Assembly: GCA_965178125.1 (NCBI GenBank)
Contig: OZ237746.1
Location: 372,001 to 436,000 of the forward strand
Length of the DNA: 64,000 bases
Direction of reading: 5' to 3'
Source of the DNA: Bilabrum cf. latius
Taxonomy: Eukaryota
The position numbers and the translations under genes were made by a program. Below are positions 1 to 64,000 of this stretch, one piece after another; the first letter of the stretch is position 1; each line of letters opens with the position of its first letter. The notes beneath the pieces are model-generated. The model was not told the origin of the DNA and searched no databases. It worked only from the letters and a program-made list of their open reading frames with translations.

Positions 1-529
1 TCTAGGGGCCGTTCCGCTTCCTATCATCGAGGTAGTGCTGCAGCGTGCACTCGATGCCCTCGATCACCACCACCCTCGCCCTCGGCGGATTCATAGAAGA
101 GTCCTGTGCTCCACCAGCTGCTGCCCCTTTGGAGCCCGTTGATGCCGCGCTTGATGCATTACTGTCATCACACATAGCATGTAGCCACTCTGGTACATCT
201 GTGACCTGGTCGAACAGAACTTTGGCGGCAATCGAAGTCCTCTTGCGAAGCAGGTCGATCCTGTCGCTGCCTCCGGCGATCCCACTTGGGCTTGTGGTGC
301 AGGGTACGTCAGACTAGTGCGTAAAGACAACCATTGCAATGGAACTGGCGGCCGGCTTGGGAATGTCTGCGGACAATCCGGTCAAGCGTTCAGCGTCGGC
401 ATCGAGGCGCAGCAGAGTGTAGCACTCAGACACGGCTAGCACAATGTCTTGAGACGACGGCACTTCTGGAGACAATACACCAGTATCTATGATTTTGCCT
501 ATCCTCTAACTGGACTCGCTTTGCTCCAT
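1..529 (-). CDS. 5' part of a paralogue of the pseudokinase-ARM gene at 4600-10023 (runs off the left edge)
   Basis: Frame is open from ATG 529 with TAG read-through at 506, 314 and 2. Translation ...SIAAKVLFDQVTDVPEWLH...STGSKGAAAGGA...RVVVIEGIECTLQHYL aligns with SIARVLTDKVIDLPQWTH...STGSRGAAAGGA...RLIVTERVQCTLLEHI of the neighbouring gene. The start is uncertain because TTTCTGCAG before the ATG could be a splice acceptor. Confidence 0.75.
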
Positions 530-1005
530 CTGCAGAAACACGAGGAGAATACGGTAAATTTAAAATGGCTATTGTCGGCGACAGTATCGAGACCAATATT
601 GAACATGCATGATGACAAAATCTTCACTTTGATAATTGATACGTACTCATGGTCATATGTGCATCAGTTTATATCATTCTTACCCTTATCAGAGGTTGGA
701 TATGCTAATTTCAATTCGTCGATCGAACAGGGCTTATGTTGCGGTATGTTACCAAACAATTCGTAGTTTCGGTTTCACGCAGGCATTTGCTTCAATCTTC
801 GTATTCATAAAGAAGCGTGTGTTTCGTGTCGGAATACAGATGCTGTTGACATTGCGAGAACCCAATAAACGACGCTAACACGGCTTCTTTGGCAGCTCTC
901 ACGCACAATAGCTAAAAATGCCCAAACTGTCTCGCACCATGTCTTCCAGTGGTTCGGTGAGAGGCCTCTTCACCTGCGCTCGAGCGAAGTTGTGTACCAG
1001 CGGAC

Positions 1006-3621
1006 ATGCTCATTTATCGATTGCAACCCCACGCCTCGCAGGGAAGCCTAGGCTCAGAATCAGACGACTCCTTGGGCAAATTGATTTCTGAGTTATGTTC
1101 CCCCAAGAAACAGACGAAAGGATCAGCAGAGCAAACTAGTCGCAAGAAGCGAGACAGGCTGATGGGCGGCAAGAAGAAAATGAAAAGCGATAAACGCCCG
1201 ACTAAAACAAGACGAACAGCTTCGGGAGTTCGTGCGTCTGGTCGTCCAGAGGATGCGGCTACTGTCGAGAGCCAGGTCGGTAATCCGTCCACATTTGTCG
1301 GTCGAAAGCGCAGCCGGTTTGATGAGGCTGACGATGACGATGCTGCTACTACTAGTGCTGCTGCTGCTGCTGCTGCTGCTGCTCGGGCTGCTGCTGCAGC
1401 TGCTGCTAGTGCTGCTGCTAGTGCTGCGTCTGCCGCGGCTGCTGCTGCTACTGCAGCTACTGCTGCAGCTTCGTACAGGCAAAGCACTCGTCATGGAAGC
1501 AAGGTGGTGCAACAAGTGACCTCTAAGCTCGCCAAAAAGGGGGCAGGCGGTGGCAGGGGCGGCGACAGCGGCCTGAATCGTCGCGGTGCCCGGCGGGTCG
1601 ATGAGCAGGGCACTGCAATGCGTCAAGTTAGCGACCAGCGAGCTGCGATGAATCCTGCCACAAACCACGAGGCGGTTGTCTCCGCGGCGAGTCACGAGGC
1701 GAGGGCTGGGAAGCCTGCAGACTCCCGGCATCCGGTGGCGGAGGCATTGGGTGTCTCCTCTGCGAGTCGAGGGGCGAGGGATGGGAAGCATGGAGACTCC
1801 CGGCATCCGGTGGCGGAGGCATTGGGTGTCTCCTCTGCGAGTCGAGGGGCGAGGGATGGGAAGCATGGAGACTCCCAGCATCCGGTGGCGGAGGCATTGG
1901 GTGTCTCCTCTGCGAGTCGAGGGGCGAGGGCTAGGAAGCATGGAGACTCCCGGCATCCGGTGGCGGAGGCATTGGGTGTCTCCTCTGCGAGTCGAGGGGC
2001 GAGGGATGGGAAGCATGGAGACTCCCGGCATCCGGTGGCGGAGGCATTGGGTGTCTCCTCTGCGAGTCGAGGGGCGAGGGATGGGAAGCATGGAGACTCC
2101 CGGCATCCGGTGGCGGAAGCATCGGGTGTCTCCTCTGCGAGTCGAGGGGCGAGGGATGGGAAGCATGGAGACTCCCGGCATCCGGTGGCGGAGGCATTGG
2201 GTGTCTCCTCTGCGAGTCGAGGGGCGAGGGATGGGAAGCATGGAGACTCCCGGCATCCGGTGGCGGAGGCATTGGGTGTCTCCTCTGCGAGTCGAGGGGC
2301 GAGGGATGGGAAGCATGGAGACTCCCGGCATCCGGTGGCGGAGGCAGTGGGTGTCTCCGCGGCGAGTCGAGGGGCGAGGGATGGGAAGCATGGAGACTCC
2401 CGGCATCCGGTGGCGGAGGCATTGGGTGTCTCCTCTGCGAGTCGAGGGGCGAGGGATGGGAAGCCTGCAGACTCCCGGCATCCGGTGGCGGAGGCATTGG
2501 GTGTCTCCTCTGCGAGTCGAGGGGCGAGGGATGGGAAGCATGGAGACTCCCGGCATCCGGTGGCGGATGCATTGGGTGTCTCCTCTGCGAGTCGAGGGGC
2601 GAGGGATGGGAAGCATGGAGACTCCCGGCATCCGGTGGCGGAGGCATTGGGTGTCTCCTCTGCGAGTCGAGGGGCGAGGGATGGGAAGCATGGAGACTCC
2701 CGGCATCCGGTGGCGGAGGCATTGGGTGTCTCCTCTGCGAGTCGAGGGGCGAGGGATAGGAAGCATGGAGACTCCCGGCATCCGGTGGCGGAGGCATTGG
2801 GTGTCTCCTCTGCGAGTCGAGGGGCGAGGGATGGGAAGCATGGAGACTCCCGGCATCCGGTGGCGGAGGCATTGGGTGTCTCCTCTGCGAGTCGAGGGGC
2901 GAGGGATGGGAAGCCTGCAGACTCCCGGCATCCGGTGGCGGAGGCATCGGCGGGCCGAAGCAGCAGAAGAAGCTAGATCTAGCCAAATACCAAGTCACCA
3001 CACGCTGCATCGGGAGCTGGAACTTCATCTTCGAACGGCAGGGACAGTGATTCGAGCCAAGACGATGAGGGCGACGATGACGATGAGGGCGACGATGAGG
3101 GTCAGGCAGGGCGGCGTACGTACTCGTGGTTGGGTCGGGATACCGGGTACGCAGGGGTGATGGCGGATCTATTCTCGAGACACGGCACTAGCAAGGCCGA
3201 ATACCTACAATTTGCTACGCCGTCTCGGGGCATGGATCACATTGCGACAGCGTGGTTCAACCTGTTGTCAGGCCCGGACTCGCCTCTATAGCAGCTCAGG
3301 CTGGTTCTCGATGGGACTGAGGGCGGGCGTGTGTCCGATAGGCACCTCGCTGCTTGGCGCTTGTACAAGACCGTTGAAATGTACATTGGGCTGGGGAAGC
3401 ACCAGCGAGCCGTAGATCGGAAGTCTGTTTTTCTCTAGGTTGTTACCGCGATAGGGTGGTGGACCGAGCCTGTGGGGCAGCACTGGTTCCAGCTTATGGA
3501 TATTGACGACATGGCCGTCGATGACCTCGCACACAAGGCGGGAGTTCTTCTTGACGAGTGGGGGGAGCCGGACGCCAGTGTCGGCGAAGGAGATGAGAGC
3601 TCGGATCCTTTCTGCAGTTGA
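1006..3621 (+). CDS. Hypothetical low-complexity protein with a basic N-terminus, poly-Ala and 17 x 25-aa tandem repeats
   Basis: ORF 1006-2976 continues in frame through TAGs at 2974, 2980, 3289 and 3436 to TGA 3619-3621. No recognisable domain. Confidence 0.6.
1700..2948 (+). repeat. Coding minisatellite, 75-bp unit x ~17 (GDSRHPVAEALGVSSASRGARDGKH)
   Basis: gactcccggcatccggtggcggaggc... recurs every 75 nt from 1720 to 2920 with few substitutions and no spacers. Confidence 0.97.
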
Positions 3622-4599: not shown

Positions 4600-7500
4600 T
4601 CACACGCTCACATCCTGCCCTCCATTGCCGTCACCTTCTCCCTCCCGACTGCCTCCACCACTCTACTCTTCATCGTTAGCACCATCCCCACCAGCAGCAC
4701 CACTGGTATCCTCGCTCTGTTTGACTTCCTCACTGCCACCACAACCAGCGCCGTCGCCACCGGAAGCCCCTGCGCCCGGCCCGGTGGCAGCATTTGCAAG
4801 CTCGATCTGTTCCGCTGCAGACCAATCGGATGCTACACTTTTCGGATCGTTCAAGCCATCATCTGAATCATGAACAACTTTGAGAAATCGCCTGAAGCAC
4901 TGCTCAATCGGCTTCGGGAGGTCAAAGTCAGCTGCCATCACCAGCTGCACAGCCTCCAAGGATCCGGCCTGCACGACAGCAGTCACGTCACCCACAGAGC
5001 CCTTTGCTATGTCACAAACAATCCAAGCAGCAGCTACAGAATTGGTATCACAGGTACGTAGCCTGTGAATGAGGTGGGGAAGTACCCCAGATCCTACAAC
5101 CTCGCCAGCAGGCTTGGCAGCAGTTCTATCGAGGACGTTGTGCAGTGCGCTGGCCACGGCATTGAAATATTGACACTCCGGATTCTGCAGCTGGACGCAG
5201 AGACCTGCAACGCCACGAGATTGGGCAACTTCCGTACAGATCAGTCCAGAAATACTCAGCCCATGAAGCACATGCACCGCACTTTCGGCACGCGATGTTC
5301 CAAGCATATCCACAAGTGACGTGATGCCGATTGCGTCCGCAGCCGCCTTGGCGTCTACGCATGGTATCTGAAGGATGTCTCTGATATGCTTGCCTATCCA
5401 GACATCAATGCGTTCGTTAGCTGTGCGAAAGAGGAAGGCAAACTTGGGCAGCATCGTAGACCCAGCGACTGCTGCCGTTGCAGCTGTGACCACTGCACTA
5501 CCGCCGCTGCATGCGTATCGCAGAATGTGTCCAATCGCATGACCCACAAGAAGCATTCGGACTTCTTTCGAGTGAGCTTGCGATTGTTTTTGCAAGTTCG
5601 GATCTGCACCATGCTCTAATGAAGCTAGCTTGCAAACAACGAAGTACAAATCCGACAGGCAGTCCAGAAGTCCAGCATCAAAAAGAGCAAGTGAAATTGC
5701 AGGGCGATCGCGTACTAAATACTAAACGAGCTGTTGTATTGCTAACGTGCAGGTCCAGCTTCTTCTCTGTAGAGCTTTGATCAGGGCCGGGAGCACGTTC
5801 GCTTCCTGCACCGCGTTATTTGGTGGACCCGAATGAAAAGCAATACATGCCAGCGCACCAGCTACCATGTGCAGCAGCATGCGCTTCTCTTCGGAAAGCA
5901 TCAAGTCAATGAGCACTGGAACAGCCCCATGGTTGATCACGTTGGTGGCCATATCCGGTGATATTGCAGCGATGCAAGTCAGGGCACTGAGGCTACGACC
6001 AGCCAATTCTGGCGAAGCGTGGGATAGTGTGTCTACTAAGCACGCAATGAGACGATAATCTGCCTCAATGACCTCCTATAGCACATCATTACCTCCGTCC
6101 AAGGTAGTACAGAGACACTGCAGGGCAGCAACAGCAGCCTAAGTGTGACTGCCTGACTGTACAAGCTGAACCATGCTTGGCACTACACCTGATTGCACAA
6201 CCGCTGTTTTCAATCCATCACATCCACTTGCTATATTGTTGAGAGCCTACCACACTGTGCAAAGCAAATCATTGTGCATGCCGTCTGCGGACTCCGCCTC
6301 TTGAGCGATTCTTACGAGATGCGGCAGAACGCCGGCGTCAACTATCATGTGGCCAATGCCGTGATGATTCCGAGCGTAACACTGGATGAACTCAGCTGCC
6401 AGTTGCTGAGTCTCCAAGGAGTCCGATTGAAACCACTTGATCATGACTGGTAACACTCCAGCCTTACTCATGGCATCCCGGACACCGAGACATCCAGAGC
6501 CAAGATTGAGCAGGACATTGTACGCCTTGGACACGACAACAGGATCCAAGTCACCTTCGTCTGGGTCAAGGTATTCAACGAGCCTGGGAACAAGGGAAGC
6601 CTGAACCACAGCAACCTTCAGGCTGTTAGCTGCGCGTGCCATGCAAGACAAGTACTCGAGTGCAGCTTCTTGCTCTCCTTCGCTCTACTGGTTCACAATG
6701 TCTACGATGTGAACCATGCCGCCTAGCTCAGCGAACCGCCTCATTGCACCATCGTTGCCCTCTACTACTGCACACAACAATTTCAGCGTACTTGATCGTC
6801 TATCCATCAGTCCTGCTTCTGGTGCGAGCGCAGAAACGATCACAGGAACGATTTCAGTGCGTAGAATGCACTTAATCACGTCCGGGTCGTTTGCTTCCAC
6901 CATGGCGCCGAGGCATCCCAAAGATGCAGCCTTTTCATCAAGGCTACCCTTTCCAAGCAAGGCCGATAGCTTACTGACCACTTCATCGTTGACAACTGTC
7001 TTCAATATGTCGGTTGAGTCCCTGCATAGTGTCCAGAGAACTGCCGCAGCACCCGACGCACTGCCGTTTGAATCTTGGCCGAGCGCTTCCGATAGCTAAT
7101 CGAGTGCGCCCGCTGCCATCAGTTCTTTCTTGACGTGAGTGTGCGTATGACATAGCTTAGCTAAGCATGTGCACGCGTGTTTAGACTCTATCACTGAGGG
7201 ACTGTTGATCATACTGACGAGTGCTTGAATGCCCCCTGCTCCAACAAACGTCCCTACTACATCTACAGGCCCTTGCTAGAGCATACAAAGACCCCCGACT
7301 GCCTGACAGCGTGCCATTGACGAAGCTAGGCCGAGCAGGCATACGAGAATGTCGATGATACCCTCAGCGACGAGTCGCTGGTGGAGCTCCCGAGAACTGC
7401 CAACAAGTACTACGATGCACTCTGCCAGGGCATCCACTGCAGCAAGGTCGTCATGGCACGATTGGACCAGCCTCTTCACTACGGATAGCAGTCCAGCATC

Positions 7501-10023
7501 AAGCGAAAGGGCACGCACTCCAGGTGATCTACTGGCAAATGCTGTCAGAGTGGTAGCGGCCAACTGGACCAGTATCTTGTCCTGCGCACCAAGCATTCGA
7601 AGCAGCGCTGGGATGCTCTCCGACTCGACGACAGCTTGATGTGCAACGGCATTAGAAGCCAGGTGCATAAGTCCCCCGACCACATGAATTTGTACAGCTA
7701 GAGACTGAGCAGACGCATCATCGATGTTGCAGGCAGATACCATCCTCGCTAGCTGTTGCGGCGCTCCGGATTCTGCCACTGCCTACTTCAATTCCTCCGG
7801 TCCGGATGAGTAGTACCTAAGGCACTAGGCAGCTGCAAGAAGCGTGTCGCCGCTACCGAGCTTCAGCATTGCAACGAGTCCACTTAGCTCGCTAGAGTCA
7901 ATGTTCGTACCCTTTGCATCCTGAAGCACCTCGGCTATGCAGGCTAGTGTTTGTACAGCAACTGTCCTGTGGGCAGCGGATTCACCATGCACGATTCGCA
8001 CCAGGGAGCCGATTGCACCTGCATCCGCAGCGCTCTGACACGCATCAGGATTTCCTTGGATGATTCCATGCAGGGCTCGAATTGCTGCTAATGCGCAGGG
8101 TGGCACGGTCGAACCCAGTACGTGGACGAGTGTATCGACTCCATCCAAGCTGACAATCTGGCTGCGAGCGTGGCCACTATGCCAAGCCAGCTCGGCAAGG
8201 AGGCCCGCACCAGCATCCACGGACCGATCTCCTGCATTTTGCAGAAGGTCGAGCACAGCTGGAATGCCTTTTGCGTCTATGATTGAGCCTTGGATCTCGG
8301 GACTGCCAGTGGCACATTGGAGCAGCGCATGGGCGGCACACGTCGCCTCAAAGTCATCCACTGAGGACAGCCTAGATACCAACAGTGGAACTGCACCCGA
8401 CTTGAGTACCAATGAACTCTGACCACTACCAAGTGCTCCAACTGCCAGGGCTGCTGCACTCCTCTGAATGGCTTGATCCGACTGCACCATGTCTAGGAGC
8501 TGCTGCAGGGCACCGGCATCAATGAGGAGCTTCTTTGCAGCTTTGCTGCTACTGCTGCAAGCCTGTACTACAAACGCGGCAAGCTACTGGGGTAAGACTG
8601 TATCAGTTCCATTCATCGCAGCTGTCACTGCTTCAAACAGCGCTGCCTCGCCATTCCCTCTGACGAGATGGGTGGCCAGCTGCACTGCCTGCTCTCGGAG
8701 CAACTCTCTCACAGCAGCGCCAGCCTCATCCATGTGAATGATACCGAGCCCTTGATGGATGCACCATAGCATGCGTGCTAGTGCTGTACAGCTGCCCTTG
8801 GCATGCAACTCCTCGAAGGCCTCCCTCGCTGCATCGATCGCGCTGCTCTCGGGACACGGCCCGCTCAGCAGCGGCAGCAGGTGACGTGCATCTTGATCGA
8901 TGTCAGGATCACCCGAGGTGGAGAAGCGCACTGGAGCATGCATCAAATACCATTCAAGCGCAACCAGAGTGCGATCAGCCGTGCAATCGTCCTGAGTGGC
9001 TCGCGCCAGCTGCCCAAGGATCGACTCATGACCTGGGCTCTCCTCCAACTCGCCGGTTCCACTGGCAGCCGCAGCCGTAGGCCTAGTATCACGGCATGCA
9101 TGCACGAGTGCATTCAGTCCAGATGTGAGGATGTGCGAAGAAGGCTTTGGTTCTTCGCTTGCCCGCAAAGCGGGGTCTCTGGCAAGCGTCGACGTGGTTG
9201 CAACGGCGCCAAGGGCGACGGGGCTAGGGCTAGAGCTGCCGCAAGCGGAGTCATTCAGCTCTGCAATGTCCGCGCCACTGCTCTTGGGGTCCATTAGAAC
9301 GATTGGAAGAAGCACCACCCTCCCTCCATTGCCCTCGTCACACCCCGCCGTGCTCCATGCCAGGTTGTCCATCGTCAGCAGGCTGAGGTCGATGCCGTGA
9401 TGCAGCAGAAGCTTCACGATCTTGGCGATGTCGCGGGCGATAATCATTGCATCGTACTCGGAGAGTCCTGTTTTGCTGTGCTGCGTCTCTTGGATATGTT
9501 CAAGAAGCGTGCATTGCACTCTCTCGGTCACGATCAACCGGGCCGGCTGCGGCCCATTGGCGGAGACTGCTTTTGCTCCGCCAGCCGCTGCGCCTCTTGA
9601 ACCTGTCGACAAACGGGAGACTTCTGCTTTATCAAACAGATCGTGAGTCCATTGGGGCAGATCTATGACTTTGTCCGTAAGAACCCGGGCGATGCTTGCG
9701 TTCTGAGGCAGTTGCTCGACATCGCCGCTTGCGCCTGCACGTCCCTGCTGCTCTGGCACAAGCGATGCGATGCTCGGCAGTCTAGAAATACACAGAGTCA
9801 TATTGGACAGGTCAGGGATGGTTCCTTTTGGTGCACGGCTTGGCTGGGATGTGGCAACTGCCTTTGCATTGACCAGCACGAAGTGCTCAGTCTACCTCAA
9901 CACAAGTTGGTCCGACGACGACCATGCAGCTGGCAGCTTAACTACGTACGATGACAAGTCTACTGATGCGGAGCTCTCTACGCGTGCCATCTGCGATATT
10001 GAGGAGGTAGTCGTGGTTAACAT
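4600..10023 (-). CDS. ~1800-aa protein: N-terminal pseudokinase-like region plus a long armadillo (ARM) repeat array
   Basis: Seven listed ORFs share one frame and are joined by 12 TAGs with no TAA/TGA until TGA 4602-4600. ARM-type motifs: GAVPLLVSRL, GIPAVLDLL, GAIGSLVRIV, GVLPHLVRI, GAVPVLIDLM. Kinase-like V-VIb segment: RLIVTERVQCTLLEHI..LSEYDAMIIARDI..LLHHGIDLSLLTMDNL. Confidence 0.85.
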
Positions 10024-10879
10024 CAATCGAGGACGTCCAGGATCCGTGCCTGGAATATCTTGCACAGGAGGGCATAACCATCCGCATTAGTTCTACGCCA
10101 GGGCATACAAGCACGTACTAAGCCTTTTCATGCCAAGTCAGGGCTACTCTTACGTTAAGAGCTTTGTAATAATGATATCTCCTCAGAGTTTTGTTTGCCT
10201 CTCCTTAATGTTGCGCTGTGAATTGATCAAATACAGAATTTCGGTTTCCTGTGTGCATTTACGCGCGGTCAGTCGAAACTTGTAAGCGGCAAGGATGATC
10301 TCCCCACAAATACAAAACTTCTGGCAAAAAGCTACTGGTCTTTTGATAAGGTGATGTGTCGCAGATGCAAGAATTACAACACTGCCAGTGGCCCACCGGG
10401 TAGTGTTGAAGAGCACACACACAACCACGTGTCACGACCCATGAGTCATAAGCTACGTGTCACGAGCAGCCAAGGCCGGGGCGGGAGTATCAAAGCATGA
10501 TATCGTGCGGAAGTGCACGGCGGACGGATGTCATGAAGCGATGACGCATCTCTCAGCTGGCTGTGACGTGTCTGCATGCGGAGCAGCTGGCTCCTTCCCC
10601 CGGGCCTCGGCCCGCATCACCTCCACCTCACTGAACCGCATCTGATCACCACCTTCTTCCAGTCGCCGCGCAGCTGCCTTTGGATTGATGCTGCTCTGCT
10701 CACTGCGGAGAGCTTCCCCGGGTCGTCCAACAGCTTCACGCACTCACTGTGACCACTGGTGGCACCCAACCGAGCCGCCTCCAATGGACCCACCATCGCC
10801 CCACCCTCCATCTCGCGCTTCATCTCCAGCCCACCCGCCACCGGTGGACTCAGTGAGTGGGGAGCCTGAGGGATCTCAA

Positions 10880-12280: not shown

Positions 12281-12401
12281 GCCTTCACGGCATGCTAGAG
12301 AAATAACGAGACTTTCCCTGTGGCAACCGAAATCTTGATGAACGTTCGACGAAGCGGGCCTTTGGCGCCAAAGTGCAACAGCAGTCATCTACATCCCCAC
12401 A

Positions 12402-51200: not shown

Positions 51201-54200
51201 CCCACTGCTAGGACTCGGCGAGATTGGCTGACCCCGCAGCAAACTCCACGCCAGCGACATCGTCCTCGAGCACCCGCACGAAGATTCGAGGCTGCGGTGT
51301 GTTCGTCCAGGCGACCACACCCGCATCAACCGTGACGTCCACGATGTACGTGCGTTCGACCATGCCGTCTATCTCGTTGTCGATCGGGTTGATGATCCAC
51401 GTGAAATCCGATTGCGAAAGGGAGTAGGTTGCAGACACGCTCGTGCTGCTGAAAGCCCCTCCCGGTGCCGTGATCAGCAAGCCAGGCACAGCTTCGTGTG
51501 ACTGGTACCCTGCGTTCTGGTGCACTGTAAGCGTGACGGTTATCGGCTCCAGCAGCGCAGTGGGCAGACCTAGATCGATACGGACCTCGGTGCCGAGGCC
51601 CGCAGCAGCCAGTGCTGCCCCTTTCTTGCCGTTGATTCCCTCGGCTAGCACGATCGAGTGGGTCTCGTTGTTCGCTGACACATTGAGCACCGACACGGGC
51701 GCGATACCAGACAAGCTCAGTGTGTGCCCCGTGCCCGTCCTTCTCTTGGGCAGCCCAGAGAAGGACAGCGAAGCCTGTTCGGGGATGAGAGATTCGATGC
51801 CATCGCCCCTGTCGTCGTCCCTGGACCCGCCATCTCCGCTACCGCCAGTGTCGCTCTCAATGAAGACCCTGACACGATTTGTGTCGTTCTAATAGATGAA
51901 GAACACTTCATCCGTTCCTCGCCCCGCGATACCCTGGGTCACGAGAGGTTGCCACGCGTACGTGTGCTCCACAGCGCTCACGTTCCAAGCATCACCAAAC
52001 AGAACGGTGCTAATTGAGCCTACGTTTGCAACGCTGTCAGGGTTCACAGCGTTGGTGTCTACGACCAGGAGGTCAAACCCTCCGGTAAGGTCGCTCCTGT
52101 AGGTCCCCAGCACAAAGGAACCGAAGCTGATAGAGCCGGGCAGCTCTGGTCGGATGACGTGCCAGCCCTCGAGGGTGTAGGGATTGCCTGACTGCACCCG
52201 AAGCAGCACCACGGTCCCACCGCATGTGTTCTCCGAGCCCGCGACGCCGCTGCGGGGGGCCCCCACAGCCAGGGTGATGGCGTTAGTGCCGGGTAGCCTG
52301 CCTGGGACGAAGTCGAACGACTCGCCAAACCCCGTGTCAGTGGTGTCTACAGCGGTGGTGAAGGCCGAGCTGGTCAACGCCCCACCCACGAACACCAAAT
52401 TGGTGACACTGGGCCCAGTGGCCTACATCATGTATAGCTCCAAGTCCTCGCCGGAAAAGTCCTTCTTGGTGTACGCAAACACCGCTTGGTCCGTGTCCCG
52501 GGGACAGTCTGGACACTCCTTGATGTCTACCCCGAACGCGTCCGAGACAGAGAAGGCTCCGTTCACGTCGATAGACTGGTACAGCGCCGCAGAAATCACC
52601 TTTTGCTGCTGGCGGTCCCATCGCAGGAAATACATCCCGCCGGGCGCCATCGACTGCCTCCCGACAGCCATAGAGACAAAGTCGTTCGATCGGTTGAACA
52701 CCACCACGGACTCTCCAAACCCCTCGCTTGAGCTCAGGGTCTGTTCCCCAAGCGCGGCACTGCCACTTGACAGCACGATCGAGCTCTCGGTGATCATGTT
52801 GCCGCTGCCGTCGATCCCCTGCAGAACGACCGCGCCCCGACCCTAAGGCCCAAAGGTCGGCACACCGAACACCAGATCCAGCGAACCTTCCGCCCGCATG
52901 GGAGCGACAGAGAAGGACTTCCCACGATCGGCAAAGTCGGCTTTCCCGGCGAAGAAAGTAGAGTCGATCGTCCCGATCCTGGGGTTGGACAGCCCCTGAA
53001 TCCCGTTGGAGGTCTTGATGGTCGCAGAGTCGGCAATCCCCAGCCTGGGACACACCTCGCTGTAGGGCCTGGGAGCTGCCTGAATACCCAGGAACAGCCC
53101 AGACCCTGCCTCAGGGATGCCGTTAAACGATTGAAATGGCAGTCCAAGGAAGAGATACACCGCGTCGTTGGCTGACTGCGGTCCCAGTACGGCCGCAGAG
53201 CTGCCGAACCCGTCCCCTGCTCCGACCCCGGCAGCGGTCCAGTTGACCGCGGCAGTGTCGGGCTTGTCGGGCGAGTAGTAGGTCCTCGCCTCCTCGACCA
53301 GCTCTTCGGAGATTGTGACGAGCGTGAATCCACCGTCGCTGGTCAGGCTCGGGCCCCTTCCGCTGCCCACGATGAGGTCGGTTCCCCCTTTCCTGTCGAT
53401 GTTCCCTGGAGAAGCCAGCGACAGCCCGAAGTGAACCCTTCCCGACGTGCTTCCGAAGAGCTTTGTGACACTTCTGTCCATGGCCAGGTGTCCAGTGGCA
53501 TTGATCGTCACGATGAACACGGTCCCATCCGCCAGTGCGCCGCACTGGGGGCACCCGATGGCGAGGAGAGCGCCGGCCATGCCGTCTGGCAGGCCCAGAG
53601 ACGCCAGCGACTCCCCGATCGAGTCGCCCACCGGCAGAGCAAGGCCCATATCGATCGAGTCGAACCTCTGAGGGGATGGTCCATGGGCCCCGTTGAGGCC
53701 CATGAAAAGCACGTGCACCGCACCCGTGTTCAAAGGGACACCCACGCCGGCAGGGTCGTACCCCGGAGAGCCGACTGCGATGTCCGTGATGCCGTCGCCG
53801 TTCAGGTCGCCGATGGCCGCGACGGACGCACCGAAACGGTCGCCGTGCAAAAGCTGCGAGATCAAGTAAGTAATGCGCATGATGCATGGTATAGGTCGGC
53901 ACATGTCGCAAGATGCGACCAATCATGGGAACGAGGACAGTTCGTGGAAACCAACTCAGTTGTGCTCACCGAAGCCGATACGTTCTTGTCTCCATACATC
54001 TGGCTGTTCAATACATCACAACTGCCATTCATTGTGATCGCGTGGACGGCGCCGGTGAAGGTATTGCTGCCGGTCTCTATCGGCTCCAACGGAGCTCCAA
54101 CGACCACAACGGGAACCTCGCCCTCATTGCCAATGGTCACGCCGTATACGTTAGCTACCGCGAAACCAAATTCAGAAGAAGTGCTTGAGTCTATTTCAAT

Positions 54201-54831: not shown

Positions 54832-56618
54832 TCAACGCTTGTGGGCATCTCTTATGATGCCCACCACACTCTCTGACACGGCAAGGCCGGCCGCCAGTGC
54901 CACTGAGTCCTCTGAACCAACGTCAGGCAGGGACCAGCGAATAGCACCGCTAGCACGGCTTGCTACCCCTCCGCTTCCGTCCTTCGTAGTTCCCCCCGTC
55001 GACACACGATCCCCTACAAACTGGTCCTTTCTACCGGAGGGTCCCATCACCAGCTCACCCGCCATCGCGCCTCCTGAAAGCGCCCGCTCGCAGTCCATGT
55101 GCGAGACGGCCATCCGTGCAACGACAGCATCTGCAGTCGCTCGCCACTCCACCGGTGGATACGGCACCCACGCCGGATCAATTGGGATACTAGCGCCAGT
55201 GAATGCCTCTGGTGCGCCGTCCACTCCCGGCTCTGCTCGCTCTCTTGAAGCACTTGCTCCGTGCTCGCCCGCACCGGCTCGCTCCAGCTGCCCGCGCAAG
55301 TGCTTCAGCAGGGAATCAGGCATCCGCGGGGCATCCAGCTCGGCGTATGGAAGCGACATCTCAGTAATATCAGCACTCTTGCCTGTGTCTGGTCCTGGCT
55401 CTGATGAGCTGAACACTCCTGCACCCCCTGCGACAGGTGCGTTGTCCGCCCCGGCCCCGGCCCCGGCCCCGGCCCCGACAGGTTTCTTCGATGCTGTCTC
55501 GCTATCCCTCAACTTGATCTGACCCCCTGCCACTTTCCCTGCTTCTTCCTATTGATATACCTTTAAACCAGCCCCAGCCCCAGCCCCAGCCCCAGCCCCA
55601 GCCCCAGCCCCAGCTCCGCTCTCTCGAAGGGCAGTCGCCATGGACAGGTCCGGCTTGCGGGGCACGCTGATCCTGGGGGGGCAGTGCAGCCTAGTCGCTG
55701 GCACGGACACAAGCCGCCAGTCAGGAAGCATGAGGCCGGTCAGTGCGTTGCCGTAGCAGCATCCCGTGTCGAGTCCGAGGCACCTGGGGTGTATCTGCAG
55801 CTTCTGCTTTGCGTCGTGCCCGAAGACCACTATGCCTGGGCCCCACCATGCTCGCCCCCACAGGGACATGCCGTCCTTGCCGTCAACCCCCTGCTCCTTT
55901 GCGACCAAGTCGGAAGTACTTGCCTCGGAGGATGCCTCCTTTGGAAGCGTGACGAATCGCATGTGTGTGAGGTCACGCTCGGTCATACCATCGGGCGAGT
56001 GGCCGGGCAGCACCCCGGCATGAGCGAGCAGGACCGAGTGGGGCACTTGCTCGCCGTGGTCGTGATCAAACACAACCTCAGCCCACAGGGGGAGCCCTTT
56101 CACCCACTCGTATTCAGCTTCCGTCATCTGCAGCGCCACATTCGCGTGCTCCTTGCGATACCTAACTTCGTCCTCTGCGTTTGCCATGTCTTCGACAGCA
56201 ACACCACGCGTTCTGCAGCGTTGGATTCGCTCGTACTGACGAACCAGCTCCAGCTCATGGTTTCCTTTGATGCAAAGTGCAAAGTTTTCTCGCACAAAGC
56301 GAAGCACACCGATGCTTTGCGGCCCTTTGGCGACCAAATCACCCACAGACACGAGTTCCAGCTTGGCCTGCGGTGCGGCCGATTCACCTTTCGTGCTTCT
56401 CGTCGAGCCAATCCTCTAACATGCACGAACGAGTCCTCCTGCGACACATGCCCCGGGAACAGGTGGAATCAAGCAGCTTGCGACACAGCTTAAGGTGGCC
56501 ACAACAATTCTCGACCGTGGTTGCACTCACTCAGCTCATCCAAACAGCCATGGACATCGCCAACAATAATACATCGCCTAGTATGCAAGCGAGAGCCAAC
56601 CCTGCCCAGTCGGCGCAT
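54832..56618 (-). CDS. ApaH-like metallophosphoesterase (ALPH/Ppn2-type); intron 56439-56530
   Basis: IIVGDVHGCLDEL, VGDLVAKGP, KGNHE, AHAG, VFGHDA, GLDTGCCYG. TAGs in exon 2 and at 55549, ends in TGA. Confidence 0.9.
55569..55614 (-). repeat. (GGGGCT)n hexamer repeat encoding a Gly-Ala tract; related (GGGGCC)n at ~55448-55476
   Basis: ccccag is repeated ~7 times on the + strand. Confidence 0.9.
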
Positions 56619-56800
56619 CAGGGAATTGTCTCAGGCAGGCACCTAATCACTGCCAGTGGTGACGGCTGCCTCTAGCCGTGACGATGATTCGATCCACTTG
56701 TCGCACCTGATTCAGAACGGCCCGGAATACTCAGTGGCGCTGCTTTCGAGAAATAATCATTAGATCATTGCGGCGTGCATACCTGCGAGTCGCGACTCGA

Positions 56801-57937
56801 ATGCAAGCGGAAGCAGATGCGCTGATTGGCTTCAGGTACTCTACTGCAACTACCGGAGCTCCGCGGTCAGATACCGCTGCGGTGGCAGTCGGGGCGAAAA
56901 GAAAGCGCGATGCGACTCAAATCAATGCTGAATCTATTTCTGCGACCTCGGTGTCGGTTGGTGTTCGAGCCGCAGCTCGCTCCACGTCACCTGCATCGCC
57001 GGCCAAAAAGGCAAGATCAAGCTCTAGTAGGAAGTCCCCGTCGAAGTCTCCGAAGAAATCAAAAGGTAGCAAGTCGCCAATGAAGCCCATTGATCCTCCC
57101 ACAGATTGGCGAGATGTGTACGGCATTATCAAGGAGATGCGATCCAACCGAGATGCGCCAGTGGACACGATGGGATGCGAAAGCCTCGCTGATACCAAGG
57201 CAGACCCGAAAACGCAGAGGTTTTAGACGCTGGTTTCACTTATGCTCAGCTCCCAGACGAAAGACGAGATAAACTACGCTGCGATGCAGCGATTGCGAGC
57301 CTACGGCTTGTCTGCCAAGACGATGGCCGAGGCCGACACCGCCACCATCGAAAAGCTGATATATCCCGTGGGTTTCTACCGCAACAAGGCAAAATTCATC
57401 AAAGCAGCCGCGGCCCAGCTTCTGGCAGACCTGGACGGAGACATCCCGCGCACCGTGGAGGGCCTGTGCAAGCTCAAAGGGGTGGGCCCCAAGATGGCCT
57501 ACATCACCATGTCGGCGGCGTGGGGGGACCCCGTGGGAATCGGGGTGGACGTTCACGTGCATCGCATTGCAAACAGGCTGCGGTGGGTGAAGACCAACAC
57601 TCCCGAGGAGACCAGGTTGGCGCTTGAGGGCTTTGTTCCCCGGAGCCAGTGGGCGGAGATCAACATCTTGCTCGTGGGCTTCGGACAGACGGTCTGCCTC
57701 CCCCGGGCACCGCTCTGCGGGGAATGCGCCGCCAGGTCACGTTGTCCCGAAGGCAAGAAGTTCAAGGGTGAAATCAGTGTTACGAGTGCGCGCGGGTTGC
57801 TGATGGCCACAGCTGCTTCCTCCTCAAGTGGTACCGCAGCTAGTGACGGAGCTGGGGCTGCAACCGGCGGTGCCAGCGCCAGCACGGACGTAGAAGAGGG
57901 CGGCATTGGGGTGCATCGCACTGTGATGCTATCGGCT

Positions 57938-57989
<52 letters not shown>

Positions 57990-58453
57990 CTTAGGTCATG
58001 CAGAGCCAGATCTTGCCAGCTGCCGGACCCAGCACCCCGTCTAGGCGCCGCGCACGTAGCCCATCCGGTTCCGCAGGCCGGTCCCCGTCCCCCCGCCGCC
58101 GGTCTAACCTGACCTCCCCCGTGGACATGAGCCCCGTGGCGGAGGCAAGGGCGATTTAGAGGAAGGCGGAAGAGGCGGCAAGAGCTGCCGGTGCACGGTC
58201 ATCGGCAGGCGAGAGCGAGAGTGCGGCCGCGGCCGCGGCCACTGGCAGCAATGCAGAGCGACCAAGTGGTGAGGCAGCCGACCCGGAGATCGAGGTCGCG
58301 GGGGAAAAGGGGGACACGCAGAAGGCCGGCAGTGCTGCTCCGGCGGCGGCAAGGAGAAGGAGCCCGCGGCGGGGGCTGAGGAAGGGTGCACCGCGGGCAG
58401 GTGCAGCGGAGGGGAATCCCCAGTGGCAGAGCAAAGGAGAAGGGAGGCAGTGA
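56801..58453 (+). CDS. NTH1: Endonuclease III-like DNA glycosylase/AP lyase
   Basis: APVDTMGC, RF[TAG]TLVSLMLSSQTKD, HhH LKGVGPKMA, GIGVDVHVHRI and Fe-S motif C-x6-C-x2-C-x5-C. A low-complexity tail continues through TAGs 57992 and 58157 to TGA 58451-58453. Confidence 0.95.
57938..57988 (+). repeat. (AGC)n microsatellite encoding poly-Ser in the NTH1 tail
   Basis: About 17 perfect AGC units. Confidence 0.95.
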
Positions 58454-58831: not shown

Positions 58832-59513
58832 TCATTCCTCCTCCTCGTCAGCCTCGGCCTCCTCGGCATCGACGGTAGCCTCCTCGGTCAACAGGCCCTT
58901 GAAGGTGTCCACTGGCACGTTCTTCACGATCGTGTACATCTTCACGTCATCATCCTCATCAGCCTCGTCGTTCACACCAACGTGGCGCTCAAGCTTCACG
59001 CGCACCCTTCGCGGCACGTTGCGGATCCCCTTGTGCCAGATGTACTTGTTCAAGCCAACGTCGATGCGGATGTCGTCGGTGCCCATCATCTTCTTGGCGA
59101 AAGCCTTGACAGTGCGCACGGCACGGGCGGCCCTCTTCTTGAAGCCTCTGCAATATAATAAGGCATCATGCGAGCGAGGAAGCTGGATGATTCGCGATGC
59201 AAAGGCCGCAGTGGCACTCAGTACAAGTCAGCAGCAACTTCACAGACCAAACATCGAGAATCCAGCGTCGCCACTCGATAAACCGATAAACTTACACCTT
59301 GTGCAACTTCTTGTGCAAGTTGATGGTTGCCACGAGGGCCTTCTCCTCTGCGAAACAAAACCAGGCGACAGTACGAGGCTCGATCGAGAGTAAATGAGGC
59401 TCATCACTGGCTGCAAGTACCTAATGGACTACAGAGGTAGATGCGTGAAAATCGTGTAATATTTGCAAGATACGGAGCTCACGATCAGCATCGGGAGCCA
59501 CCACAGACGCCAT
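58832..59513 (-). CDS. RPL31: 60S ribosomal protein L31 (eL31); introns 59348-59482 and 59148-59295
   Basis: Spliced product MASVVAPDADQEKALVATINLHKKLHKVGFKKRAARAV..MGTDDIRIDVGLNKYIWHKGIRNVPRRVRV. Both introns are GT-AG and phase-compatible. Ends in TGA. Confidence 0.96.
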
Positions 59514-62500: not shown

Positions 62501-62626
62501 CGCAGCCTTCACGCGCACGGCCCGCATCATCTCGGACCAGGACATACGATACATGCAGGGGTCCACCCTCGTCACCAAGGCAACTTGGAATGCACATAGT
62601 CTAGCGCATTTGCCTCTAGTCCAGTT

Positions 62627-64000
62627 TCACATACTCCCGGCCTCTGCAGCTGCTAGCTTCGCCCTCGCCGCAGCCAGCTCCCGCTCCAGGTCCCTCACAC
62701 GATCCCGCAGCTCCTCCACAGTCTATCCCCCTGTCTTCCCACCAGCGCTAGCACTGCCCTACCCCTACCCATCCACACTCGCACCCCCGCACACCGCCTT
62801 GCCGCCGACCCTGTCTCCTTCCTCGTTTCCCCTGTCCCCGCCCCACCACGCCCTCCCCTCCACCAACGCCCGGGCCACATGGTCCTCGTTCCCCTACACC
62901 GGATTGCCATCCCCGCACACGCCCGCTTGCAGCCCGCTGCGCATCGCATCAAATATCCCGTCCATCATACCATCCCAGCCCTGCCGACCGCTCAACGCAC
63001 CGCCAACCTTCGCAGGTGATCCAAACACAACCCTCCCATGCCCCCACTTCCACGCCCCCAGCAGCACGCTCGCGCACTCCACATACCCCTGCTGCACCGC
63101 GCACGCAAGCGGACTCAGGCCCGCACCAGGCGACCCATTCCCACCGAGCAACCACGTCCCTCCCGCCCATCGACCCACCCGCAGCCGCTTCCCCAGCTCC
63201 AGTGGCCTGCCCTCCCTCGCCGCTCGATGCACCATCCGCGCGTCCCGCTGCGCCTCGTGCGCCCGCCGGAACCGTACCAGGTCATGCCCCCTGCCGTGCC
63301 ACGCGCACGCCCTAGCCAGGTGAGGGGGCAGCCGCTCCACCATGCGCCTCAGGCAGGCCATGGAGTCGTGCTTCACATCCTCCAGCATCTCCTTGAGCTC
63401 ATCGGAAGCGTGCTTCAACGGGGTGTACCCGAGGTCGTTCACAGCCGTGAGGTCTCCTCCTGACCGGAGAAGGAGAGCCATGCAGGCGAAGGCGTTGATC
63501 TGCCGCTGGCCATGGCACACATTGGTACGATACATCAACAAATGCAAGGGGGTGTCAGCTAAAGGGATAGCAGGGCACTGCGAGGGTTCTTTATAGCAAC
63601 CTCTAAGTATATCTGAAGTGCGACGATGATAGCTGTTCCCATTGTTGATCTTGGCTGCCTCGCTCGATTCCAGCCAGCGACGCAGCCGGTGGTACCCGAA
63701 CTCGCCTTTCCCCTCCAGCGGACTGCCCTGCTCCTTGTCGCACACGGACCCTGTGCGGTTGTTGTGTAGCAAGCCGATGCGCTGTAGAAGGCGCAGGAAT
63801 CCAAAGTGCCCTTCAAGGGCAGCACCGTGGACCACCGTCAGCCCGAGCTGCGTACGAAGCACCGAAAAGAAACTAGCAGGTAGAACTTGGCCATACGAGA
63901 TGATCAATGCTGCAGTTGGCGATGGGAGGGGTCCCAGCGGCCCGCTGTTGCTCACATCGCTGCGTGCCGACAACACTCTGTCCGGAACGATCCGTCGTAC
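62627..64000 (-). CDS. Ankyrin-repeat protein with C-terminal coiled coil (5' end off window)
   Basis: TVVHGAALEGH, DTPLHLL..LLLRSGGDLTAVNDLGYTPL, LSPLACAVQQGYVECASVLL. Reads through 4 TAGs to VEELRDRVRDLERELAAARAKL and TGA 62629-62627. Confidence 0.8.

What the first reader, a model, noticed from the sequence alone, without database searches (positions are those of the whole stretch)
1..64000. Non-standard nuclear genetic code: TAG is a sense codon while TAA and TGA remain stops
Seen: about 95 in-frame TAGs (hand count) interrupt 15 genes on both strands, and the frame always resumes with coherent protein. Examples are 29 TAGs in one 14.6-kb exon (39235-53853), 12 in 4600-10023 and 10 in 25109-34665, with no in-frame TAA in any of them. 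Gene ends are TAA (10880, 21286, 23041, 35053) or TGA, never TAG. Known: UAA and UAG are nearly always reassigned together in eukaryotes. UAG-only reassignment is reported in few lineages (e.g. Iotanema spirale UAG=Gln, a rhizarian with UAG=Leu, some phyllopharyngean ciliates). Inference: this GC-rich, intron-containing protist may be an independent case.
Basis: partly seen in the sequence, partly recalled or inferred. Interest (0 to 1): 0.97.

Follow-up and report, generated by a model that had tools for sequence, protein, structure and literature searches.

The report
TAG read as glutamine in a protist
This GC-rich eukaryotic DNA reads the stop codon TAG as the amino acid glutamine while still ending its genes with TAA or TGA, a rare kind of genetic code known so far from only a few protist lineages.

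Summary

- **TAG inside genes:** 13 long reading frames (16,615 codons) hold 94 in-frame TAG, 0 TAA and 0 TGA. Only reading TAG through opens frames of 4895, 3230, 1828 and 1384 codons.
- **TAGs are real and reach mRNA:** contigs of 4 runs from 4 studies show no differing letter over 20 kb. Contigs of two runs lack a GT..AG intron yet keep the TAGs; one keeps 28 of the 29 in the giant exon.
- **TAG means glutamine:**
  - The TAG in endonuclease III sits where 116 of 120 homologues have Q.
  - A metagenomic relative (78% identical) shares that TAG. It has a second TAG at the SSQTKD glutamine, Q in 118 of 120, and its gene ends in TGA.
  - In the giant gene, close-relative fragments show Q at 6 of 10 TAG sites (E 2, S 1, K 1). 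Those fragments stop at window TAG 4 times and at window CAG 5 times.
- **TAA is not sense:** about 35 would be expected and none is seen.

This is the UAG=Gln, UAA/UGA=stop code, the assignment NCBI table 15 gives (recalled). It is published for Iotanema spirale and a few ciliates. The organism is unplaced. The tRNA and eRF1 could not be examined, because no genome is held.

The parts
39235..53853 (-). Single 14.6-kb exon of a giant membrane protein (FG-GAP repeat, REJ domain, EGF-like part, C-terminal membrane spans). It holds 29 in-frame TAG and ends in TGA.
   Evidence: Translation and TAG list. Pfam REJ E=5.4e-22 and FG-GAP E=8.6e-8. A 15,421-nt contig of run X5 covers 39401-53853 with 0 other letters. 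Close-relative fragments give Q at 6 of 10 TAG sites.
53854..53969 (-). 116-nt GT..AG intron of the giant gene (GTGAGC...CGCAG).
   Evidence: Joint 53853/53970 in contigs of X5 and X6. A contig of X4 (52753-55439) runs through it unspliced. Sequence.
24973..34665 (+). 3230-codon frame, low-complexity and repeat-rich, no Pfam family. 12 in-frame TAG (10 after 25109). Ends in TGA.
4600..10086 (-). 1828-codon armadillo-repeat protein with 12 in-frame TAG. Ends in TGA; the last TAG is only 21 codons before the end.
   Evidence: Pfam ARM_ARMC5 E=1.6e-28 and Arm E=5.6e-23..
13413..17567 (-). 1384-codon frame without a Pfam family, 10 in-frame TAG, ends in TGA.
56711..58453 (+). Endonuclease III (Nth/NTHL1) gene with a long low-complexity tail. 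TAG at 57224 (conserved Gln column), 57992 and 58157. Ends in TGA.
   Evidence: PDB 7rds E=1.7e-74. Column counts 116 of 120 Q. Codon-level comparison with L001. An X5 contig covers 56707-57930 without a joint.
54832..56526 (-). ApaH-like metallophosphoesterase (diadenosine tetraphosphatase type), 2 in-frame TAG (56418, 55551), ends in TGA. A 92-nt GT..AG intron lies at about 56438-56529, so the first ~30 codons of the frame are intron.
   Evidence: Pfam Metallophos. PDB 2qjc E=6.8e-24. Joint 56437/56530.
35053..36369 (-). 1-Cys peroxiredoxin gene, 2 in-frame TAG (35871, 35526), ends in TAA.
   Evidence: Pfam AhpC-TSA and 1-cysPrx_C. PDB alignments.
36489..38081 (+). TTC4/Cns1-like co-chaperone (TPR + Wheel domain), 2 in-frame TAG (36957, 37614), ends in TGA.
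10880..12448 (-). SpoU-type methyltransferase-like frame, 2 in-frame TAG, ends in TAA.
19034..21286 (+). 750-codon frame without a family, 5 in-frame TAG, ends in TAA. Coding status is less certain.
23041..24696 (-). 551-codon frame without a family, 7 in-frame TAG, ends in TAA. Coding status is less certain.
961..3621 (+). 886-codon frame across a 75-nt tandem repeat array, with 4 TAG after the array. The frame is uncertain because several frames are open here.
62627..64000 (-). Ankyrin-repeat protein, cut by the window end. 4 in-frame TAG, ends in TGA.
18167..18946 (-). Naa10-like GNAT N-acetyltransferase. No TAG after its ATG; the one TAG in the frame lies just upstream of the start. Ends in TGA.
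58832..59147 (-). Last exon of ribosomal protein eL31. No TAG, ends in TGA. A 148-nt GT..AG intron lies upstream at 59148-59295.
   Evidence: Pfam Ribosomal_L31e E=7.5e-25. Joint 59147/59296 at contig depth 3655..
21936..22850 (+). 304-codon beta-trefoil-like (fascin/FRG1/ricin-like lead only) frame. No TAG, ends in TGA.

Best explanation
The window is nuclear DNA of a GC-rich, intron-bearing eukaryote whose cytoplasmic translation reads UAG as glutamine. UAA and UGA stay the only stop codons. This is the assignment NCBI table 15 gives (recalled), the 'Iotanema-type' code.

Shown here:
- TAG lies in frame in real coding sequence at about 5.7 per 1000 codons, which is 15% of glutamine codons.
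- TAG is kept in spliced transcripts.
- It stands where homologues have Gln.
- It interchanges with CAG between this organism and a close relative that uses the same code.

Inferred, not shown:
- A tRNA-Gln with anticodon CUA, one base away from tRNA-Gln(CUG). It pairs with UAG but not UAA.
- A glutaminyl-tRNA synthetase that accepts that tRNA.
- An eRF1 that no longer competes well at UAG but still recognises UAA and UGA.

Decoding must be efficient, since one protein needs 29 TAGs read in a row.
For: (1) Frames. 94 in-frame TAG against 0 TAA and 0 TGA in 16,615 codons. The other frames of the same strand are full of TAA and TGA. Only reading TAG through lengthens frames, to 4895/3230/1828/1384 codons.

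(2) The letters are real and are in RNA. Over 39401-59400 the contigs of 4 runs from 4 studies show no other letter.
- A 15,421-nt contig of X5 covers 39401-53853 with 0 differences and then skips 53854-53969. The skipped ends are CT..AC, which is GT..AG on the gene's strand.
- X6 shows the same joint.
- X5 also skips 56438-56529 and 59148-59295.
- X5 contig depths are 80, 15 and about 3500 for three neighbouring genes. A contig of X4 runs through the first intron.

(3) Deeply conserved columns. The window's TAG at 57224 in endonuclease III aligns with Q in human NTHL1 and in a second solved endonuclease III. It aligns with Q in 116 of 120 best homologues (3 H, 1 gap).

(4) A relative with the same code. 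L001 is 78% identical over 245 residues.
- It has TAG at that same column.
- It has a second TAG at the SSQTKD glutamine, which is Q in 118 of 120 homologues and CAG in the window.
- Its gene ends in TGA.
- The window's TAG at 58157 is CAG in the relative.

(5) Giant gene against fragments of close relatives (83-92% identical).
- At 10 window TAG sites the relative has Q 6, E 2, S 1, K 1.
- With the substitution table of those same alignments, Gln is the most likely meaning: log10 likelihood -11.6, against Lys -13.4, Glu -17.2 and Leu -25.5.

(6) Ends of relative fragments. The 10 fragments (70-92% identical) end just before a window TAG 4 times, a window Gln 5 times and a Lys once. All 5 Gln are CAG. 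Chance of 9 or more of 10 ends at Q or TAG is 4e-12.

(7) TAA is not sense.
- With CAA/CAG = 0.37, about 35 in-frame TAA would be expected and none is seen (Poisson 9e-16).
- Reading TAA through joins no two frames of the same reading frame into one; the extensions of gene frames that I checked are under 85 codons.
Against: - No tRNA gene lies in the window and no genome is held, so the decoding tRNA and eRF1 are unseen.
- Only 6 of 10 TAG sites are Q in the close relative, against 68 of 73 ordinary Gln sites (Fisher p=0.010). TAG sites are therefore less conserved than CAG/CAA sites.
- One TAG (35871, peroxiredoxin) aligns with F or L in solved peroxiredoxins, though that segment occurs twice in the frame and may not be exon.
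- One TAG (57992) faces G in an unalignable low-complexity tail.
- The stop codons that end the relatives' protein fragments could not be read as DNA. That they are TAG is inferred.
- The tool labels X5 'RNA? (probably DNA)' and no holder is on record as RNA. Reading X5 and X6 as transcripts rests on the three GT..AG joints and the uneven depths.
- Contigs drop rare variants, so low-level editing cannot be excluded.
- That TAG never terminates is true by construction of the frames. In 4600-10086 the last TAG is 21 codons before the TGA and could be the real end.
Confidence: 0.9

Rival explanations
1. TAG is a sense codon and also serves as the stop of some genes, depending on context near the 3' end. 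This would be an ambiguous code, as described for Condylostoma, Parduczia, karyorelicts and Blastocrithidia.
For: The frames were delimited by TAA/TGA, so a terminal TAG would go unseen. In 4600-10086 the last TAG lies 21 codons before the TGA, and in 62627-64000 it lies 32 codons before. These tails are too short to judge coding.
Against: Two dedicated stops remain and end all 16 frames examined (TGA 12, TAA 4). The relative's endonuclease III gene also ends in TGA. In 11 of 13 frames the last TAG is 61 to 345 codons from the end. In the giant gene the conserved membrane part lies after the last TAGs. The base after TAG is G most often (39 of 94), not the C that favours readthrough (recalled).
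Confidence: 0.08
2. TAG is a sense codon but stands for another amino acid (Glu, Lys, Ser or Leu), as in the rhizarian exLh (Leu), Scotinosphaera (Ser) or the ciliate PL0344 (Glu).
For: At 4 of 10 TAG sites the close relative has E, E, S or K. One TAG aligns with F/L in peroxiredoxins.
Against: - Two Nth columns are almost invariant Q: 116 of 120 and 118 of 120.
- There are direct TAG/CAG exchanges in both directions.
- The likelihood ranks Gln above Lys by 1.8 and above Glu by 5.7 log10 units.
- No Leu is seen at any of the 10 sites.
- E, K and S are each one base from TAG (GAG, AAG, TCG), as expected for ordinary replacements.
Confidence: 0.03
3. Both TAG and TAA mean glutamine (the common UAR=Gln code of many ciliates, hexamitins, some ulvophytes and Amoeboaphelidium). 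TAA would be merely rare because the genome is GC-rich.
For: TAA is rare in every frame of this window: 32 to 82 per frame of 21,333 codons.
Against: CAA is not rare (141, against 383 CAG). About 35 in-frame TAA would therefore be expected beside 94 TAG, and 0 are seen. Four frames end at TAA, and reading it through adds only short tails (10, 18, 70 and 80 codons) before a TGA.
Confidence: 0.02
4. There is no code change. The TAGs would be assembly or sequencing errors, edited or spliced out in the mRNA, or the genes would be pseudogenes.
For: None found. Contigs cannot show rare variants.
Against: - There are 0 differing letters in contigs of 4 runs from 4 studies over 20 kb.
- Spliced contigs keep the TAGs.
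- Only TAG interrupts frames, never TAA or TGA.
- A separate organism (L001) has TAG at conserved Gln columns of an otherwise intact gene.
Confidence: 0.01

Closest known systems
Iotanema spirale (Metamonada, Fornicata): UAG=Gln, UAA and UGA stops (PMC5304391; abstract and sections 7 and 9 read)
   Same: The same three assignments. In-frame UAG stands at conserved Gln columns, and no in-frame UAA or UGA is found. The same inferred mechanism applies: a tRNA-Gln(CUA) that cannot read UAA, with an altered eRF1 proposed.
   Different: - Iotanema ends genes mostly with UAA: 104 UAA, 15 UGA and 7 truncated among 126 transcripts (section 7). Here TGA ends 12 of 16 frames.
- Iotanema is known from a transcriptome of a gut anaerobe. 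Here there is 64 kb of 60% GC genomic DNA with ~100-nt GT..AG introns.
- None of the named best Nth hits is a metamonad.
- Kinship was not testable.
Ciliates with UAG=Gln only: Hartmannula sinica, Trochilia petrani (Phyllopharyngea) and Protocruzia tuzeti (PMC11687900, passages read; PMC10089648, passages read)
   Same: UAG alone is reassigned to Gln. The share of UAG among Gln codons is similar: 18.5% in H. sinica and 31.8% in T. petrani, against 15% here.
   Different: - The paper gives 27.4-53.6% GC for the class. UAA is the commonest stop and UGA the rarest (1.7-13.1% of genes).
- The window has 59.9% GC and TGA is the main stop.
- The window is a 64-kb multi-gene stretch with genes of up to 14.6 kb on both strands.
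UAR=Gln codes (NCBI table 6 (recalled): many ciliates, hexamitin diplomonads, some Ulvophyceae, Streblomastix, Amoeboaphelidium protococcarum; PMC5304391, PMC6299283 passages)
   Same: A stop codon is turned into glutamine, presumably through a mutated tRNA-Gln.
   Different: In those codes TAA is also Gln. Here TAA is absent from 16,615 in-frame codons and ends 4 frames.
UAG reassigned to other residues with UAA kept as stop: rhizarian exLh and TARA phyllopharyngeans (Leu), Scotinosphaera (Ser) (PMC5304391; PMC11687900 discussion)
   Same: The meaning of UAG is uncoupled from that of UAA.
   Different: The amino acid differs. No Leu and one Ser appear among 10 TAG sites, and both deeply conserved columns are Gln.

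Membership tests
UAG=Gln, UAA/UGA=stop nuclear code (NCBI table 15 assignment; Iotanema type) | In-frame UAG in bona fide coding sequence, present in the mature mRNA | tested here: met
   94 TAG in 16,615 codons. Spliced contigs of X5 and X6 keep them with 0 other letters.
UAG=Gln, UAA/UGA=stop nuclear code (NCBI table 15 assignment; Iotanema type) | UAG stands at positions where homologues have conserved glutamine | tested here: met
   116 of 120 and 118 of 120 Q at the two Nth columns. Q at 6 of 10 sites in close relatives. TAG/CAG exchanges. The number of sites is small, from one window.
UAG=Gln, UAA/UGA=stop nuclear code (NCBI table 15 assignment; Iotanema type) | UAA is not a sense codon and ends genes | tested here: met
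   0 in-frame TAA against about 35 expected. 4 of 16 frames end in TAA. Reading it through adds only short tails.
UAG=Gln, UAA/UGA=stop nuclear code (NCBI table 15 assignment; Iotanema type) | UGA is not a sense codon and ends genes | tested here: met
   0 in-frame TGA. 12 of 16 frames end in TGA, as does the relative's Nth gene.
UAG=Gln, UAA/UGA=stop nuclear code (NCBI table 15 assignment; Iotanema type) | UAG never ends a coding sequence | tested here: inconclusive
   The frames were delimited by TAA/TGA. Two frames have a last TAG 21 and 32 codons before the end. No 3' end data.
UAG=Gln, UAA/UGA=stop nuclear code (NCBI table 15 assignment; Iotanema type) | A tRNA-Gln with anticodon CUA, and none with UUA | not testable with these tools
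   No tRNA in the window. No genome held.
UAG=Gln, UAA/UGA=stop nuclear code (NCBI table 15 assignment; Iotanema type) | eRF1 with changes in the stop-recognition motifs (GTS, NIKS, YxCxxxF, position 69) | not testable with these tools
   eRF1 is not in the window and no genome is held.
UAR=Gln code (NCBI table 6) | TAA as well as TAG in frame at Gln positions | tested here: not met
   0 TAA in 16,615 codons. No frames of the same reading frame are joined by reading TAA through.
UAG=Leu code (rhizarian exLh type) | UAG aligned with conserved leucine | tested here: not met
   0 of 10 sites are Leu. log10 likelihood -25.5 against -11.6 for Gln. The Nth columns are Q.
Ambiguous stop/sense codes (Condylostoma, Blastocrithidia type) | The same codon is sense inside genes and the stop at their ends | tested here: inconclusive
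   No frame needs TAG as its end, but ends were not mapped.

The most novel reading that the evidence does not exclude
This is a separate, not yet described origin of the UAG-only-to-glutamine code. It would sit in a GC-rich, non-ciliate, non-fornicate protist clade with several environmental members: the window's organism, the L001 relative, and perhaps the more distant owners of P0145 and P0134, whose fragments stop at or near the window's TAG sites.

In a 60% GC genome TAG should have been a common stop, not a vanishing one. The change would therefore not fit codon capture under AT pressure. It would point to takeover by a mutant tRNA-Gln(CUA) in competition with eRF1. Genomic DNA is in hand, so the tRNA and eRF1 could be read directly.
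Probability: 0.45. Interest if true: 0.78.

Novelty: new member of a known kind. Interest (0 to 1): 0.66.

Why it matters
UAA and UAG almost always change meaning together. Cases where UAG alone is reassigned are few: Iotanema, one rhizarian, Scotinosphaera and some ciliates (PMC5304391, PMC11687900). They are the natural test of how a eukaryotic ribosome and eRF1 tell UAG from UAA.

The case documented here is backed by genomic DNA, spliced transcripts and a related organism with the same code. Its genome is GC-rich, and TGA rather than TAA is the main stop.

- **Annotation:** standard-code gene calling breaks these genes at every TAG. The database fragments found here start and stop there. 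The genome needs the table 15 assignment.
- **Evolution:** GC-richness argues against simple loss of the codon before reassignment.
- **Mechanism:** a genome gives direct access to the suppressor tRNA, GlnRS and eRF1. The 2017 paper had only a transcriptome for Iotanema and expected genome sequencing to be hard.

Tried and rejected
- **No tRNA or tmRNA in the window**. Rfam found only one snoRNA.
- **Armadillo protein search:** for proteins of 1005-3199 aa it gave 7 distant repeat matches at 23-27% identity. These were no use for TAG columns.
- **Scans with the giant protein:** none found a relative in metagenome contigs (34 pattern matches, 0 confirmed), genome contigs (11, 0) or viral contigs (1, 0).
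- **The look-up of sequencing runs:** no RNA holder listed.
- **Laid runs:** some bins of X4 and X7 had no cover. Nothing is drawn from that.
- **TTC4/Cns1:** the one PDB match (6hft) does not reach the TAG at 36957.
- **Metallophosphoesterase:** the TAG at 56418 lies in a poorly aligned stretch next to an intron.
- **Peroxiredoxin:** the TAG at 35871 faces F/L, but the segment occurs twice in the frame, so I did not count it.
- **Placing the organism failed:**
  - The cluster look-up gave no names.
  - A FastTree of 122 Nth rows only joins the window to L001/P0013, then to the unnamed P0012.
  - eL31 against solved ribosomes scores alike for Tetrahymena and Plasmodium (entry organisms recalled) and the next-ranked solved ribosomes, at E about 1e-25 to 1e-24.
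  - An ESM Atlas look at the beta-trefoil-like frame gave only weak leads (recognition 1718, scores 0.91).
- **Rows dropped before the 10-site count:**
  - Fragments below 80% identity: P0134 (38%: I, gap, A), P0135 (42%: A, A, Q), P0137 (33%: E) and P0145 (52%: Q, G, D, T, T, E).
  - P0138 (70%), which covers no TAG site.
- **Literature:** searches for a GC-rich lineage with this code found none in the held library. Supplements were not seen, and the library lacks most subscription journals.

Full report
**What is in the window.**
The window is 64,000 nt with 59.9% GC. No whole genome is held for it. Its contents say nuclear DNA of a eukaryote:
- a ribosomal protein eL31 gene and a box C/D snoRNA;
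- endonuclease III, a 1-Cys peroxiredoxin, a TTC4/Cns1-like co-chaperone, a Naa10-like acetyltransferase and an ApaH-like phosphoesterase;
- armadillo and ankyrin repeat proteins, and a giant FG-GAP/REJ membrane protein;
- three GT..AG introns of 92, 116 and 148 nt seen directly as joints.

- Longest stop-to-stop frames under the standard code: 1153, 1133 and 803 codons.
- With TAG read through: 4895, 3230, 1828 and 1384 codons.
- With TAA read through instead: nothing changes (1153, 1133, 840).
- With TGA read through: only the general lengthening expected in GC-rich DNA.

In the 13 frames I took as genes there are 94 in-frame TAG, 0 TAA and 0 TGA in 16,615 codons. In the giant frame alone the two other frames of the same strand hold 24 TAA and 177 TGA.

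- 29, 12 and 10 TAG in the three example genes; the third frame holds 12 stop-to-stop, 10 after 25109;
- an exon end at 53853;
- TAA ends at 10880, 21286, 23041 and 35053.

Not every frame is equally sure. 961-3621 crosses a tandem repeat open in several frames. 19034-21286 and 23041-24696 have no homologues. The 5' parts of some frames are UTR or intron. The four largest frames alone carry 63 TAG in 11,337 codons.

**Are the TAGs real letters, and are they in the mRNA?**
Ten public runs from five studies hold the stretch or part of it. I laid the contigs of four runs from four studies on 39401-59400. No position showed another letter.
- One X5 contig of 15,421 nt lies on 39401-53853 without a single difference.
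- It then jumps to 53970, skipping 116 nt with GT..AG ends on the gene's strand. X6 has the same joint.
- X5 also skips the introns at 56438-56529 and 59148-59295.
- A contig of X4 runs through the first intron.
- X5 contig depths are about 80 for the giant gene, 15 for the phosphoesterase and 3500 for eL31.

I read X5 and X6 as transcript assemblies on these grounds. The tool's own guess for X5 is 'probably DNA', and no run is on record as RNA. With that caveat, the TAGs are not spliced out, not edited at the level a contig can show, and not an assembly error.

**Which amino acid?** Four kinds of evidence point to glutamine.

1. *Deeply conserved columns.*
   - The endonuclease III gene matches human NTHL1 at E=1.7e-74. 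Its TAG at 57224 faces Q there and in a second solved endonuclease III.
   - The homologue search used X at the TAG, so it was not biased. Among the 120 best hits the column is Q in 116, H in 3 and a gap in 1.

2. *A related organism.*
   - One hit (P0013, 84% identical) led to a metagenome contig, L001. It is 78% identical over 245 residues, has 59% GC, and has eL31 convergent downstream as in the window.
   - In L001 the same column is again TAG.
   - Ten codons on there is a second TAG at the glutamine of the SSQTKD motif. That column is Q in 118 of 120 homologues and CAG in the window.
   - The gene ends in TGA.
   - The window's TAG at 58157 is CAG in L001.

3. *The giant gene against close-relative fragments.*
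   - An exhaustive search of residues 450-1649 and a word search of residues 1650-4895 each found 7 proteins.
   - Among them are fragments 83-92% identical, evidently cut at TAG by standard-code gene calling.
   - At the 10 window TAG sites they cover, they have Q 6 times, E twice, S once and K once.
   - Scored with the substitution frequencies of the same alignments, Gln is best: log10 likelihood -11.6, against Lys -13.4, Glu -17.2 and Leu -25.5.

4. *Where the fragments stop.*
   - The 10 fragments of 70-92% identity stop just before a window TAG 4 times, a window Gln 5 times (all CAG) and a Lys (AAG) once.
   - Q plus TAG make up 4.2% of the protein. Nine of ten ends at Q or TAG has a chance of 4e-12.
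   - I could not read the relatives' DNA there, so that these ends are TAG is inferred.

*Against a clean picture:*
- TAG sites are less conserved than CAG/CAA sites: 6 of 10 against 68 of 73 (p=0.010).
- One TAG in the peroxiredoxin frame faces F or L, but in a segment that occurs twice and may not be exon.
- One TAG faces G in an unalignable tail.
- The non-Q partners E, K and S are each one base from TAG. That fits ordinary replacement of a glutamine codon at weakly constrained sites.

**TAA and TGA.**
CAA is 0.37 times as frequent as CAG. If TAA were also glutamine, about 35 in-frame TAA would be expected beside 94 TAG. There are none (Poisson 9e-16). Reading TAA through joins no two frames of the same reading frame into one; the extensions I checked for gene frames are under 85 codons.

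Of 16 frames, 12 end in TGA and 4 in TAA. Whether TAG ever ends a gene cannot be settled here, because the frames were drawn with TAG open. Two frames have a last TAG only 21 and 32 codons before the end.

**How it most likely works.**
- *Shown:* UAG is translated, as glutamine, efficiently enough for a protein that needs 29 of them. UAA and UGA terminate.
- *Inferred from established knowledge of such codes (PMC5304391 section 9; PMC11687900 introduction):*
  - a tRNA-Gln(CUA), one base from tRNA-Gln(CUG), which pairs with UAG and not with UAA;
  - a GlnRS that accepts it;
  - an eRF1 weakened at UAG, as proposed for Iotanema, where Thr32 of the GTS motif is Gly.
- None of these parts is in the window.

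**Comparison with what is known.**
The assignments are those published for:
- Iotanema spirale (PMC5304391; abstract and sections 7 and 9 read);
- Hartmannula sinica, Trochilia petrani and Protocruzia tuzeti (PMC11687900 and PMC10089648; passages read).

From memory, they equal NCBI table 15.

The window differs from those descriptions in three ways:
- GC is 59.9%, against 27.4-53.6% given for Phyllopharyngea.
- TGA is the main stop. UAA dominates in Iotanema (104 UAA and 15 UGA among 126 transcripts) and in all phyllopharyngeans, where UGA is rarest.
- It is a long multi-gene stretch with very large genes.

Amoeboaphelidium is reported to read both TAG and TAA as Gln (PMC6299283, passage), which does not fit.

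The next-nearest Nth loci in metagenomes (44-59% identical in the rows listed) have Q at both columns wherever the alignment printed reaches them, and no in-frame stop in any listed HSP. The change is therefore limited to the window's own clade.

I could not place the organism. The named Nth hits are mostly animals, with three EukProt protists and a fungus at 50-58% identity. The Nth tree and eL31 give no resolution.

Six literature searches found no GC-rich lineage with this code in the held library. Supplements were closed, and a paper on the source assembly may exist outside the library.

**Verdict.**
- The amino acid is glutamine (confidence about 0.9 for the whole statement).
- The kind of code is known, so I file this as a new member of a known kind.
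- It has a fair chance (about 0.45) of being an undescribed independent origin in a GC-rich clade.

Noticed in passing
window 1677-2947: Tandem array of 16.9 copies of a 75-nt unit, 97% matching. It encodes a 25-residue repeat inside the 961-3621 frame. Several frames on both strands are open across it, so the gene model here is unsure. The Pfam HTH_3 hit looks like a repeat artefact.
   Followed up: partly
window about 27500-30100 (inside 24973-34665 +): A block of roughly 265 residues rich in 'GxDGVAR'-like units is repeated nearly identically about three times in the 3230-codon frame (seen in the translation). Its period is too long for the tandem repeat finder as run.
   Followed up: no
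window 35053-36369 (-): The peroxiredoxin frame holds the conserved strand before the 'YP..GRN' motif twice, separated by about 130 low-complexity codons. Solved peroxiredoxins align to both copies. This may be a duplicated or pseudo-exon, or an insertion. The first copy holds the only TAG that faces a hydrophobic residue.
   Followed up: partly
window 60971-61068 (+): Box C/D snoRNA of family snR60/Z15 (RF00309): 53.6 bits, gathering score 41.
   Followed up: no
window 53685: One contig of run X6 lacks 24 nt here, an in-frame deletion near the 5' end of the giant exon. X4 and X5 have them. This is likely a strain or allele difference.
   Followed up: no
window 58832-59147, 18167-18946, 21936-22850: The eL31 exon, the Naa10-like gene and the beta-trefoil-like frame have no TAG in about 684 codons, where 3.9 would be expected (P=0.02). 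eL31 contigs have depth about 3500. TAG may be avoided in highly expressed or strongly conserved genes, but the sample is small.
   Followed up: partly
all 94 in-frame TAG: The base after TAG is G in 39, A in 23, C in 20 and T in 12. After CAG it is G 113, A 76, C 118, T 76 (chi-square p=0.035). This is a mild excess of G and deficit of C and T after TAG. It is unexplained.
   Followed up: partly
giant gene TAG sites 49986 (residue 1313), 49866 (1353), 43308 (3539), 40500 (4475): TAG sites are less conserved between the window and its close relative than CAG/CAA glutamines: 6 of 10 against 68 of 73, p=0.010. Every non-Q partner (S, E, E, K) can be encoded one base from TAG. Either TAG sits at weakly constrained sites, or TAG codons are young.
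   Followed up: partly
L001 1-1917 and L002 1-1297: The relative keeps the gene order of the window: endonuclease III followed by a convergent eL31 gene. More distant fragments stop at or near window TAG sites: P0145 (52% identical) at residue 4307 and P0134 (38%) near 1548/1551. This hints that the code is shared by a wider clade.
   Followed up: partly
window 18917-18919, just upstream of the Naa10-like ATG: The only TAG in this frame lies two codons before the start codon, in the presumed 5' leader.
   Followed up: no
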